From contig JAHHIK010000042.1 in assembly GCA_019358935.1 (NCBI GenBank), positions 1-63,028 on the forward strand: DNA of 63,028 bases, written 5' to 3'. The position numbers were made by a program, and so were the translations under genes. This DNA comes from Tolypothrix carrinoi HA7290-LM1 (GTDB taxonomy: Bacteria; Cyanobacteriota; Cyanobacteriia; Cyanobacteriales; Nostocaceae). Positions within the stretch are counted from its first letter, which is position 1. Each line of letters begins with the position of its first letter. Below are positions 60,412 to 63,028 of this stretch, one piece after another. The notes beneath the pieces were generated by a model. That model was not told the DNA's origin, ran no database searches, and saw only the letters and a list, made by a program, of their open reading frames with translations.

Positions 60412-60669
60412 TTAATTTAATAATGCGTCATACTCATCATGAGTACCTATCCAAAACCAGTAATAATCATCTTCCTTCTTTAAGGCTAAAGCACGGTATC
60501 CACCACTAACACGCGCAGACCACAGGTTTTTACCCACTTTTTTAAAATGTAAAGACGGATGAGATTGATTTTCTTGCCAAAGTTGATAAGCTTTTCTAGC
60601 TTGCTCTTTTATTTCTTCTGGTAGCTGTGCGTATGCTTGCCAAAAATCAGGTGTCGTCAATGATTTCAT
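60412..60669 (-). CDS. RelE/ParE-like type II toxin
   Basis: TTPDFW..Y..LP...HPSLHFKKV...WSARV...YRAL...WFWIGTHDEYD. Confidence 0.85.
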   Translation of the reverse strand: MKSLTTPDFWQAYAQLPEEIKEQARKAYQLWQENQSHPSLHFKKVGKNLWSARVSGGYRALALKKEDDYYWFWIGTHDEYDALLN

Positions 60670-60868
60670 TAATATCTCGCACCTTGTTTGCTGCAATATC
60701 AGCTTCGGCTTTAGCAATTAGTTTATCTAGTTTTCCCGATGTCAAGTCAGCTTCAATTTGCCGATCCCACATTTGTTCTAAATAGTCTTCCAGCCAAGCA
60801 GCTAGCTGACGAATATCATTTTCTGGTAGTTGTTTGATAGCAGCTTCGATTTCTGGCAAAGTACCCAT
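60647..60868 (-). CDS. Cognate antitoxin-like protein
   Basis: IEAAIKQLP...WDRQIEAD...GKLDKL; overlaps the toxin start. Confidence 0.8.
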   Translation of the reverse strand: MGTLPEIEAAIKQLPENDIRQLAAWLEDYLEQMWDRQIEADLTSGKLDKLIAKAEADIAANKVRDINEIIDDT

Positions 60869-61032
60869 ATTTGTTTCCAAGAATGTATTTAGATACAACA
60901 AATTAAGGGGCTGCAACAATTGACCTCGCCAACAAAGCAAGACAACACCTTAGTTTCTACAAAGCATAAAACAGTCAGCTTCATAACGCGGTTCTACTTC
61001 AATATAGCGTGTGTGACAGTTTTCATATAGGC

Positions 61033-61110: not shown

Positions 61111-61548
61111 ATGCCTGCCAGAGATCGCTACCACGAGAATGTCAAAAATGCTCTGATCAAAGATGATTGGACAATTACTGACGATCCTCTGCATTTGAAG
61201 TGGGGCAAAAAAGATTTGTATGCCGATCTGCGAGCGGAAAGGCTGCTTGTGGCAGAGAAAGGTGTGCAAAAGATCGCGGTTGAAATCAAGACCTTCGGCG
61301 GTGACTCTGAAGTAGCAGATATTGAACAGGCGATTGGTCAGTACTTCACCTATCTGGCTGTAATAAGTCAGAATGAACCAGAGAGAGTTTTATATCTTGC
61401 TGTGCATGAGGATGTTTTCATTGACATTTTTGAAGAAGAACCGCTTGGTAAACTGTTAATGGAGAGCTACAAGATTCGTTTCATTGTTTTCAACCCGATG
61501 CAGGAGATTATTGTGCGATGGATACCCTGGAACACTACAGAAATCTAA
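61111..61548 (+). CDS. xisH: XisH-family protein
   Basis: RDRYHENVKNALIKDDWTITDDPL; KIAVEIKTF; AIGQYFTY; PERVLYLAV. Confidence 0.92.
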   Translation: MPARDRYHENVKNALIKDDWTITDDPLHLKWGKKDLYADLRAERLLVAEKGVQKIAVEIKTFGGDSEVADIEQAIGQYFTYLAVISQNEPERVLYLAVHEDVFIDIFEEEPLGKLLMESYKIRFIVFNPMQEIIVRWIPWNTTEI

Positions 61549-61877
61549 TTTGCAGCATCCTGAGTGAACATACGAAGATTCCTTACTCTTATGGCGATAT
61601 TCAACATGAAACTGTTTTTGATAGAGAACAGGATCGATATTTGGTGATGATTCTGGGTCGAGAGCCTGTGCCTAACTTTTCTCCGACGGCAACTCGTCGG
61701 GTACATGGCTGTTTGATCCACGTTGATATCATTGATGGCAAAATTTGGATTCAGAGAGATGGTACGGAGGAAGGGGTGGCATCATTACTGGTCAGGGCGG
61801 GTGTGCCGAAGAATCGGATTGTGTTAGGCTTCCGCTCTGAGGAATTGAGAAAAGATTCAGAATTTGCTATCCGCTAA
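61518..61877 (+). CDS. xisI: XisI-family protein
   Basis: FDREQDRYL; HGCLIHVDIIDGKIWIQRDGTEEGVA..L...GVPK..IVLGF. Confidence 0.93.
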   Translation: MDTLEHYRNLICSILSEHTKIPYSYGDIQHETVFDREQDRYLVMILGREPVPNFSPTATRRVHGCLIHVDIIDGKIWIQRDGTEEGVASLLVRAGVPKNRIVLGFRSEELRKDSEFAIR

Positions 61878-61887
61878 ACGGTGAACA

Positions 61888-62120
61888 GGGCTGGACAACC
61901 AGCCCTTTTGCTGGACAGATAGCCAGTTCCTAAGCCTTAAATGGCTACGTTAAGAAGGTCAAGACACCTAAAAGTGCTTTCCAGCTTTTAGCTCTGTCGA
62001 TTAACTTTAAACATCCGTATTTAGCTAAGGAAGTGAGTTAATCCCAACAAGCCTTTTTAACATTGGCGTTCGCGAAGCGTCTCCCTTTGGGAGAGGAAAA
62101 CATAACCTGAGAAATCAGAG
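61888..62120 (+). ncRNA. IscB omegaRNA/HEARO scaffold with a 25-nt repeat insertion; 5' boundary uncertain
   Basis: Ordered HEARO-like blocks CCAG..CTAAG, CTACGTT, ACACC, TGC..CCAG..CTCTG, TTAAACA and ACATTGGCG..AGG directly upstream of iscB. Confidence 0.8.
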
Positions 62121-62126
62121 GACAAA

Positions 62127-62903
62127 ATGTCTAACTTTGTATTCGTGCTTGATACCAACAAACAACCGTTAAGTCCAGTCCATCCAGGGCAAGCAAGGCG
62201 ACTATTAAATTTACAACAAGCTGCGGTGTATCGGCGCTACCCATTCACAATCATATTAAAATATGCAGTTCCCGACCGCACAATACAGCCCTGTAAACTA
62301 AAGATTGATCCAGGCTCTAAAACTACTGGCTTGGCGATTGTGCAAGATGATAAAGTTATCTGGGGTGCTGAGTTGACGCACCGAGGACAGCAAATCAAGG
62401 ATGACTTAGAATCGCGTCGCGCTATTCGTCGCAACCGTCGCAATCGCAAAACTCGTTACCGCAAACCGCGTTTTTTGAACCGTACTCGAAGAGAAGGATG
62501 GTTGCCACCAAGCCTAGAATCTAGGATTGAAAATATCCTTACTTGGGTTAGGCGAATAACTCGATATGTCCCGATTACAGGGATATCTCAAGAACTGGTC
62601 AAATTCGATCTTCAAGCAATGCAAAATCCACAAGTTTCGGGGAAAGAGTACCAGCAAGGCGAACTTGCAGGGTATGAAGTCAGAGAGTACTTACTAGAGA
62701 AGTGGGGTAGGAAGTGCGCTTACTGTGGTGCTGAAAACGTGCCTTTTGAAATAGAACACATTCACCCGAAATCAAAGGGAGGTAGCGATCGCGTTTCTAA
62801 CCTCACTCTTGCTTGCCATTTATGCAACCAAGCCAAGGGTAATAGAGATATTAAAGATTTTCTAGCCAAAAAGCCTGACGTGCTATCCCATGTTTTAAGA
62901 CAA
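62127..62903 (+). pseudogene. iscB: RNA-guided endonuclease IscB, truncated before RuvC-III by an IS insertion
   Basis: VFVLD..KQPLSP..PGQARRLL (PLMP); IDPGSKTTG RuvC-I; Arg-rich bridge helix; QELVKFD RuvC-II; CAYC..EHIHPKSKGGSDRVSNL HNH. Confidence 0.92.
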
Positions 62904-63028
62904 TTGACATCCTCCCCGGTCTGAAGACACGGGGATTCCAAGAATCACTTCTTGGGTTTCCTCTTTCCGCGACTCGGCTTATTTAAAGGAGTTTCCCCAC
63001 CCAAACAGAGGTCGATGTCTCCAGAGGC
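62904..63028 (-). mobile_element. Right end and omegaRNA region of an IS200/IS605-family (tnpB) element
   Basis: Minus strand ends GAATCCCCGTGTCTTCAGACCGGGGAGGATGTCAA, a typical right-end hairpin plus TCAA. Confidence 0.85.
62945..63028 (-). CDS. tnpB: C-terminal tail of TnpB (partial, runs off the window)
   Basis: ASGDIDLCLGGETPLNKPSRGKRKPKK* immediately before the IS605-type right end; catalytic domains not visible. Confidence 0.7.
   Translation of the reverse strand, partial: ASGDIDLCLGGETPLNKPSRGKRKPKK

What the first reader, a model, noticed from the sequence alone, without database searches (positions are those of the whole stretch)
62127..63028. TnpB element nested inside iscB, so its predicted guide is iscB sequence
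Seen: iscB stops matching right after the HNH domain (...HVLRQ at 62903), where the right end of an oppositely oriented IS200/IS605 element begins. Established: TnpB guides come from the flank just 3' of the right-end TCAA. Here that flank is TTGTCTTAAAACATGGGATA, antisense iscB. Inference: one OMEGA nuclease has disabled another and would cut intact similar iscB alleles, allowing homing through an iscB family. The remaining 265-aa IscB keeps HNH but lacks RuvC-III.
Basis: partly seen in the sequence, partly recalled or inferred. Interest (0 to 1): 0.72.

Follow-up and report, generated by a model that had tools for sequence, protein, structure and literature searches.

The report
TnpB insert in HIP1-targeting IscB element
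One of many recent copies of a common jumping gene landed in and broke another jumping gene's DNA-cutting enzyme (IscB), which is ordinary, but the broken element appears to be moved by a serine recombinase and to insert into HIP1, the abundant 8-base cyanobacterial palindrome, a pairing that the papers I read do not describe for IscB.

Summary
Observation confirmed. iscB (62127-62903) is cut after Q259 by the right end of an antisense, tnpB-only IS1341-type element. This end has 15 identical copies in the assembly and about 30-fold read depth; its inferred TAM is TTAC (11 of 11 left ends). Homing through the iscB family is not supported. The only intact paralog lacks the TAM and has 5 of 20 mismatches. 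None of 108 homologous loci has the TAM with fewer than 9 mismatches. The guide fits only its own empty site, as for any TnpB insertion. The tnpB body and the rest of iscB are unassembled. The scan judged similar nestings ordinary elsewhere.

The host element is less ordinary. Its clade inserts into HIP1 (GCGATCGC): 7 of 9 informative empty sites, including this one; the scan noted this once before. The end beyond iscB, read from the paralog and relatives, has no IS605-type hairpin in the paralog. It matches the left ends of IS607 serine-transposase elements flanked by the same motif. I infer an IS607-type IscB element with a HIP1-derived TAM. A published survey found no iscB next to a serine resolvase. 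Not tested at the bench.

The parts
61111..61548 (+). xisH, upstream host gene
   Evidence: PF08814, E 3.8e-50
61518..61877 (+). xisI; the IscB element sits in its last codons, so it ends FAIR* here and FAIA* at the empty site
   Evidence: PF08869; empty site in G001, locus L073
61847..61866 (+). predicted IscB guide, taken from the xisI flank
   Evidence: inference from the element boundary; no second target with CGATCG and at most 5 mismatches in G000
61866..61867 (+). GC left over from the HIP1 target site GCGATCGC; crossover dinucleotide in the serine model
   Evidence: empty site in G001 reads GAATTT-GCGATCGC-ATAG; runs X2-X4 leave the window after 61871
61866..62106 (+). HEARO/omegaRNA scaffold, intact, 97% identical to the C144 copy
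   Evidence: RF02033, 109.9 bits, gathering 83; blastn
62127..62903 (+). iscB 5' part, 259 codons: N-terminus, RuvC-I D61, arginine-rich helix, RuvC-II E156, HNH 197-240
62884..62903 (-). predicted TnpB guide (20 nt), antisense to iscB
   Evidence: flank 3' of the right end
62904..62907 (-). terminal TCAA of the IS right end
   Evidence: 15 identical copies diverge right after it
62904..62924 (+). six insert-derived codons and the stop that end the truncated IscB
62913..62938 (-). right-end hairpin with GAAT at its 5' foot (IS608-like layout; label recalled)
62945..63028 (-). last 27 codons and stop of tnpB, inside the predicted reRNA scaffold; the contig ends here
   Evidence: 88.9% identical to the C-terminus of L002 TnpB; L002 is guided_TnpB, 305.6 bits

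Best explanation
Two layers. (1) A recently expanded, tnpB-only IS1341-type element was inserted by a Y1 TnpA acting in trans. It went in after a TTAC on the antisense strand of this one iscB allele. The TAM implies that the allele read Q-V-K rather than the usual Q-A-K (inferred). Its TnpB guide therefore copies iscB, but it can cut only the empty version of this same site (sister chromosomes, or after excision). That is ordinary transposon retention, not spread through an iscB family. (2) The broken host is a non-autonomous IscB/omegaRNA element. Its clade shares the end beyond iscB with IS607 serine-transposase elements and inserts into HIP1 at G/CGATCGC. It is most likely moved in trans by IS607-type TnpA through a G(C/G) crossover dinucleotide. 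Its IscB should then need a HIP1-derived 3' TAM (CGATCG or GATCG). Shown: junctions, copy numbers, TAM at left ends, mismatches, empty sites, shared ends. Inferred: this copy's left end and intact tnpB, the pre-insertion codon, serine-mediated movement, and the IscB TAM.
For: 15 identical right ends with unrelated flanks. Run X1 depth is 15773 against 529 for single-copy DNA, about 30-fold. 11 left ends are all preceded by TTAC, and one runs into a TnpB N-terminus 31/35 identical to the same relative's TnpB. Relatives with this TnpB type also show TTAC before the left end. G000 has 7 Y1 TnpA matches over the cut-off. None of the 15 guides has a TTAC target in G000 with a 5-nt seed and at most 5 mismatches. 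Other iscB copies in G000 are broken by a DDE_3 transposase element (C38), a group II intron (C180) and a frameshift (C131). Host layer: the clade forms one branch (31 of 75 rows, SH-aLRT 99, quick tree). G precedes the omegaRNA end in 36 of 37 clade elements and in 29 of 29 pattern hits scored. Empty sites are exact HIP1 at 7 of 9 informative sites. Four loci with the same end carry an IS607 transposase (L284 scores 190.8 bits on NF033518, cut-off 110, followed by tnpB). Over the 36 bases outside the search pattern, clade ends match IS607 left ends at 18-28 bases (n=38) and other iscB ends at 15-20 (n=53). The C144 end has no hairpin (z -0.18). Unequal GG/GC cores at the two junctions echo those reported for IS607 TnpA (10.1101/2023.11.20.567912).
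Against: This copy's left end, tnpB body and the iscB remainder are unassembled. No empty allele was found in either collection (0 matches) or among the listed loose ends of run X1 (46 loose ends not shown). No element with both iscB and a serine transposase turned up among 70 end-pattern loci. None of the 7 assembled IS607 transposase loci of G000 has the matching left end. Two of 9 empty sites (L181, L182) are not HIP1, and the window's site is GCGATCAC in G009 and diverged in G013. HIP1 is so common that 87% of CGATCG sites in G000 are followed by C, so part of the match is background. The right flank of C144 differs from the G006 empty site beyond the motif. The tree is the quick one.
Confidence: 0.8

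Rival explanations
1. One reading: TnpB guided by iscB sequence cuts intact similar iscB alleles and homes through the iscB family.
For: The guide is iscB sequence. Five homolog rows are only 3 mismatches from it. Dead TnpB binds TAM sites with little seed match in ChIP-seq (PMC10055086). Val at residue 260, which can create the TAM, occurs in 6 of 108 rows.
Against: 0 of 108 loci combine TTAC with fewer than 9 mismatches. Both full-length paralogs in G000 lack the TAM. No exact allele in either collection. No listed homolog showed this insertion at residue 259-260 other than the window's own locus.
Confidence: 0.04
2. The junction is not a clean insertion but a deletion or rearrangement end: the element removed the iscB 3' half, or the contig end is misjoined.
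For: Neither the iscB remainder nor the first 1 kb of DNA that follows xisI in G001 and G009 is in the assembly.
Against: Contigs under 10 kb are absent from this assembly (minimum 10054), and there are 15 right ends but only 11 left ends, so missing pieces are expected. The break falls exactly at the TCAA, as in all copies. Run X1 covers all 30 bins.
Confidence: 0.12
3. The host IscB element is a classical ISC (IS200/IS605, Y1 TnpA) whose 4-5-nt target lies inside HIP1; the likeness to IS607 ends is incidental or a relic.
For: The published ISC families seen are Y1-linked (PMC4810608). No serine resolvase was found beside iscB in a large survey (PMC10055086). No target-site duplication, which fits both families. 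G000 has Y1 TnpA genes.
Against: No subterminal hairpin at the C144 end, whereas several iscB loci outside the clade show one by eye. About 80% identity over 56 nt to IS607 left ends. TGGACA-type repeats at both ends. 0 of the 70 end-pattern loci was tested for a Y1 gene, so this is not excluded directly.
Confidence: 0.2

Closest known systems
IS1341 group / IS608-type IS200/IS605 elements with TnpB (ISGst2-4 of PMC10055086, passages seen; IS608 motifs recalled)
   Same: tnpB-only body, hairpin ends, TAM before the left end, TCAA right end, guide from the right flank, many near-identical copies, retention by cutting the empty donor joint.
   Different: Nothing of substance. This copy happens to lie in iscB. 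All 15 right flanks begin with A or T.
ISC2 / IscB-omegaRNA (HEARO) elements (PMC4810608; ISGst5 of PMC10055086; passages seen)
   Same: HEARO RNA upstream of iscB, about 1.55 kb, no transposase gene, no target-site duplication, protein-less derivatives, one end shared with TnpB-carrying siblings in the opposite orientation.
   Different: The target is G/CGATCG(C), inside HIP1, not GT|GG, GT|GA, TT|GG or N|ATGA. The shared end belongs to serine-transposase IS607 elements, not IS605. No hairpin at that end in C144.
IS607 family, e.g. CboIStron TnpA_S/TnpB (10.1101/2023.11.20.567912, passages seen)
   Same: Serine transposase with MerR-type HTH then tnpB in the siblings; repeats near the ends; crossover dinucleotide; unequal cores at the two junctions.
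   Different: The passenger nuclease is IscB rather than TnpB. The target is GCGATC-G(C/G) rather than TGGG or other G-rich sites. No intron.
SDR5, a 21-nt repeat found in HIP1 sites (as cited in PMC5861425 and PMC13756078; the original paper not seen)
   Same: Mobile DNA that sits inside HIP1 in heterocystous cyanobacteria.
   Different: SDR5 encodes nothing and has no known mobiliser; no link between it and these elements was tested.

Membership tests
IS200/IS605 (IS1341 group), inner element | tnpB ending just inside the right end | tested here: met
   27 C-terminal codons 88.9% identical to L002 TnpB
IS200/IS605 (IS1341 group), inner element | subterminal hairpins at both ends | tested here: met
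   right end z -1.64, left end z -2.41, same CCCCG/CGGGG stem; modest z-scores
IS200/IS605 (IS1341 group), inner element | fixed 4-5-nt TAM before the left end | tested here: met
   TTAC in 11 of 11 left ends; left and right ends paired through shared relatives, not by one contig
IS200/IS605 (IS1341 group), inner element | no tnpA between left end and tnpB | tested here: met
   tnpB starts about 118 nt inside the left end on C108
IS200/IS605 (IS1341 group), inner element | intact, active TnpB in this copy | not testable with these tools
   element body unassembled; contig ends at 63028
Homing through a gene family | other family members carry the TAM plus a seed match | tested here: not met
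   0 of 108 loci; paralogs fail; no exact allele
IscB-omegaRNA (ISC2) | HEARO RNA upstream of iscB | tested here: met
   RF02033, 109.9 bits
IscB-omegaRNA (ISC2) | complete split RuvC plus HNH | tested here: not met
   window copy stops at 259; complete in paralog C144
ISC as IS200/IS605 (Y1) | subterminal hairpin at the end beyond iscB | tested here: not met
   C144 end, z -0.18; one copy folded
ISC as IS200/IS605 (Y1) | end shared with IS605 (Y1) elements | tested here: inconclusive
   among 70 end-pattern loci 4 hit a serine TnpA query and 1 a TnpB fragment; no Y1 query was used
IS607 family, host element | left end shared with elements encoding a serine transposase | tested here: met
   L217, L218, L273/L285, L275/L284
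IS607 family, host element | short repeats near the ends, no target-site duplication | tested here: met
   TGGACA-type repeats at both ends; empty sites hold one copy of the motif
IS607 family, host element | GG crossover dinucleotide | tested here: inconclusive
   cores read GG or GC at one junction and GC at the other in the iscB clade; GG, GG, GC at three IS607 right ends
IS607 family, host element | serine transposase inside the element | tested here: not met
   none seen; elements are 1535-1587 nt with iscB only; non-autonomous
IS607 family, host element | excision as a dsDNA circle by TnpA_S | not testable with these tools
   needs a bench assay

The most novel reading that the evidence does not exclude
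A cyanobacterial IscB clade has moved from Y1 (IS605) to serine-transposase (IS607) mobilisation. Transposase and nuclease both read the HIP1 core, so this is an RNA-guided Cas9 ancestor whose TAM is the host's most abundant palindrome (7,884 sites in G000), a site that host methylases modify. Together with its IS607-TnpB siblings and protein-less derivatives it forms a HIP1-targeting mobile family. The window's intact omegaRNA could still be loaded by the intact C144 IscB.
Probability: 0.7. Interest if true: 0.65.

Novelty: new variant of a known kind. Interest (0 to 1): 0.5.

Why it matters
The nested insertion itself matters little: every TnpB insertion carries a guide against the gene it broke. 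The host element matters more. The papers read place IscB with Y1/IS605 elements, and one survey found no iscB beside a serine resolvase. An IS607-borne IscB would show that the IscB/omegaRNA module can change transposase as TnpB does. It also gives a concrete TAM prediction (CGATCG or GATCG) for a 434-aa nuclease, and a direct test of whether methylation of HIP1 allows or blocks integration and cutting. That bears on the open question of what interacts with HIP1.

Tried and rejected
Looked for the iscB remainder by blastn and tblastn with the C144 C-terminal half: only C144, C131 and C180. Looked for the DNA that follows xisI in G001 and G009: the first 1 kb is not in G000. Tried to pair left and right flanks by open frames: ambiguous, dropped. 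First considered the 14-copy TTAT left end as partner because of its count. Rejected: the TTAC end leads into the matching TnpB and shares the hairpin stem. Exact empty allele: 0 matches in both collections. A near-identical full element: best relatives 89% in 41 genomes and 91% in 389. Read runs X1-X4 are contigs only, so they give no expression data and a missing allele proves nothing. I first read the empty site from run X2 as GCTATCGC; genome L073 shows GCGATCGC. The IS607 gene beside L183 lies outside that element and was not counted. A 15/16-copy GG-ended element of G000 has similar repeats; its end had no match in 60 other genomes or in plasmids, but its protein tail matched about 490-aa ORFs, two with a serine-transposase-like tail upstream, judged by eye. 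No trans target was found for the window's IscB guide. Paper searches with no hit: IscB+cyanobacteria+HIP1, HEARO+HIP1, TnpB mismatch terms. Searches listed nothing whose title or seen passages describe iscB nested with tnpB, or iscB in IS607 elements.

Full report
Observation. The window is the whole contig C42 of genome G000. A HEARO RNA lies at 61866-62106 (109.9 bits), followed by a 265-aa ORF at 62127-62924 with RRXRR and HNH domains that scores as guided_IscB. Against the intact 434-aa paralog on C144 (92% identical) the match ends at Q259, base 62903, and six insert-derived residues follow. RuvC-I, RuvC-II and HNH remain; the KTHWLD segment (RuvC-III, label recalled) and the C-terminus are gone. 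From 62904 the minus strand holds the last 27 codons of a TnpB (88.9% identical to L002; L002 is guided_TnpB), a hairpin and a terminal TCAA.

The inner element. The same 122-125 bases end 15 contig termini, with identical sequence and unrelated flanks. In run X1, probably the source sample and so not independent, the end has depth 15773 against 529 for single-copy DNA, about 30 copies. Eleven left ends are all preceded by TTAC. One continues into a TnpB start 31/35 identical to the same relative whose C-terminus matches our right end, and no tnpA lies between. This is a tnpB-only IS1341-type element with TAM TTAC; the AAAG/TTAC and GAAT/TCAA layout is that of IS608 (recalled). G000 has 7 Y1 TnpA matches over the cut-off. 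The body of this copy and the rest of iscB are on no contig, and contigs under 10 kb are missing from the assembly. An intact tnpB here is therefore likely but unproven.

Would it home through iscB? A target needs TTAC next to a guide match. C144 has TTGC and mismatches at positions 1, 4, 7, 12 and 14; C131, which is frameshifted, has 9. I pooled 29 loci (which gave loci for 30 of its matches in 101 of 389 genomes), 80 (the best 80 of 119) and the two paralogs. 108 of these 111 covered the site (84 distinct; some loci appear twice). Three rows (two alleles) have TTAC, with 9, 9 and 10 mismatches. The five closest rows have 3 mismatches and no TAM. Residue 260 is Ala in 96 rows and Val in 6. 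The TAM exists only in the rarer Val-codon alleles, so the pre-insertion allele was probably one of these (inference). No exact allele was found in the metagenome or genome collections (records very near this genome may be left out). None of the 15 guides has a near target in G000. In passages seen, single TAM changes abolished cleavage by GstTnpB2 and GstIscB (PMC10055086), and double mismatches in positions 1-12 abolished ISDra2 TnpB cleavage (PMC10097598). The first paper also reports loose seed needs for binding, which counts against me but concerns binding only. What remains is the known retention role at the element's own empty site.

Chance. The three iscB stretches counted hold 18 of 39,540 TTAC-A/T sites in G000, roughly 1-2% for 30 insertions of this family alone. 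Many other multi-copy families end contigs in this genome, and iscB is dispensable. Two other iscB copies are broken by different elements: a DDE_3 transposase on C38 and a group II intron on C180. The scan's own notes list comparable nestings in other genomes and call them ordinary (unchecked).

The host element. The empty site in G001 reads GCGATCGC exactly where the window's element begins; G009 has GCGATCAC and G013 is diverged. C144's site is GCGATCGC in G006, though its downstream flank differs. Flanks of 15 related elements gave 3 junction-level hits in G000, all GCGATCGC. Of 15 further, mostly protein-less elements, 4 gave informative sites: 2 HIP1 and 2 diverged. That makes 7 of 9 distinct sites. 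Homologs at least 68% identical to C144 form one branch (31 of 75 rows, SH-aLRT 99, quick tree). Of 37 distinct elements, 36 have G before the omegaRNA end. At the other end 28 read ..GATCGC, 4 ..GATCGG, 3 other variants, and 2 have no motif. A pattern without the G found it in 29 of 29 loci scored, of 30 fetched. Background is high: G000 has 7,884 HIP1 sites, and 87% of CGATCG sites are followed by C. The enzyme may therefore read CGATCG rather than all eight bases. The scan noted HIP1 insertion once before (e1-2466671, seen, after my own test).

Which transposase? The C144 end beyond iscB has no hairpin (z -0.18) but carries TGGACA-type repeats, as does the omegaRNA end. A 20-base pattern from this end gave 40 metagenome loci and 30 genome loci (some are chance hits, and 6 more matches were not listed). 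23 of the 70 hit IscB. Four (L217, L218, L273, L275) have a serine-transposase ORF starting about 75 bases inside the end, antisense to where iscB lies. L284, the full L275 element, encodes an IS607 transposase (190.8 bits, cut-off 110; Resolvase plus MerR) followed by TnpB. All 6 such left ends are preceded by GCGATC. Over the 36 bases outside the search pattern, clade ends match these left ends at 18-28 bases (n=38) and other iscB ends at 15-20 (n=53). The junction dinucleotides are GG or GC at this end and GC at the omegaRNA end. IS607 TnpA gave the same kind of unequal cores when donor and target differed (10.1101/2023.11.20.567912, passages). I infer movement in trans by an IS607 serine transposase. 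Against this: no element with both genes was found, no Y1 query was run on those loci, and none of the 7 assembled IS607 loci of G000 has this left end.

Comparison with print. PMC4810608 (passages, part of Table 1) ties ISC elements to Y1 transposases, with targets such as GT|GG and N|ATGA, and contains no 'HIP1' or 'GATC'. [quoted passage not shown] PMC13565253 (passages) lists IscB under IS605 only. PMC10691335 and PMC9956272 (passages) report no IscB-IS607 link in what I saw. PMC5861425 and PMC13756078 (passages) name only SDR5 as mobile DNA in HIP1, and PMC2779907 only counts HIP1. Searches for IscB+cyanobacteria+HIP1 and HEARO+HIP1 gave 0 papers; IscB+IS607+serine gave 15, 11 listed. The library lacks most subscription papers and I read no supplements, so prior description is not excluded.

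Verdict. The finding as posed is a real but ordinary nested insertion, and its homing claim fails the TAM and seed test (interest about 0.15 alone). The host element is probably a new variant: an IscB element with IS607-type ends that targets HIP1 (probability about 0.7). Overall interest 0.5.

Noticed in passing
window 62903 and the 14 other right-end flanks in G000: The first base after the right-end TCAA is A or T in 15 of 15 copies, against 52.5% after TTAC genome-wide (p about 6e-5). A second TnpB-type element shows it in 9 of 9 by eye. This suggests a +1 preference of the transposase.
   Followed up: partly
window 61866-62106 and G000 C144:4386-5948: The window's omegaRNA is intact and 97% identical to that of the intact C144 IscB, so it could be loaded in trans and still guard the xisI site.
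   Followed up: partly
L069:1055-1132 (G000 C180): A group II intron 3' end sits inside another iscB, just before the HNH domain.
   Followed up: partly
L306:255-1441 (G000 C38): An iscB N-terminus is cut after about 83 codons by a DDE_3 (IS630-like, label recalled) transposase element.
   Followed up: partly
L157, L159, L181, L182, L274, L282: Protein-less 330-410 bp elements with the same ends, several with an omegaRNA-like body; genome G744 has 15 matches to the end pattern.
   Followed up: partly
G000 contig ends such as L186 and L187; L198:125-400: A 15/16-copy GG-ended element with TGGACA repeats. Its protein tail matches about 490-aa TnpB-like ORFs; several relatives have a small divergent gene upstream instead of a serine transposase.
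   Followed up: partly
L284:439-2172: In the HIP1-flanked IS607 elements the tnpB frame stays open across almost the whole tnpA gene (577-aa ORF overlapping the 215-aa transposase; similar in L218).
   Followed up: no
window 60412-60940: A ParE-like toxin gene (PF24732) with a small upstream partner ORF, a likely toxin-antitoxin pair next to xisHI.
   Followed up: no
L162, L163, L164: Remnants of the element's omegaRNA end sit at what looks like one orthologous site in four genomes of one genus, apparently decaying stepwise.
   Followed up: no
L068:2042-2121: PsrR1 small RNA lies next to the C131 iscB element.
   Followed up: no
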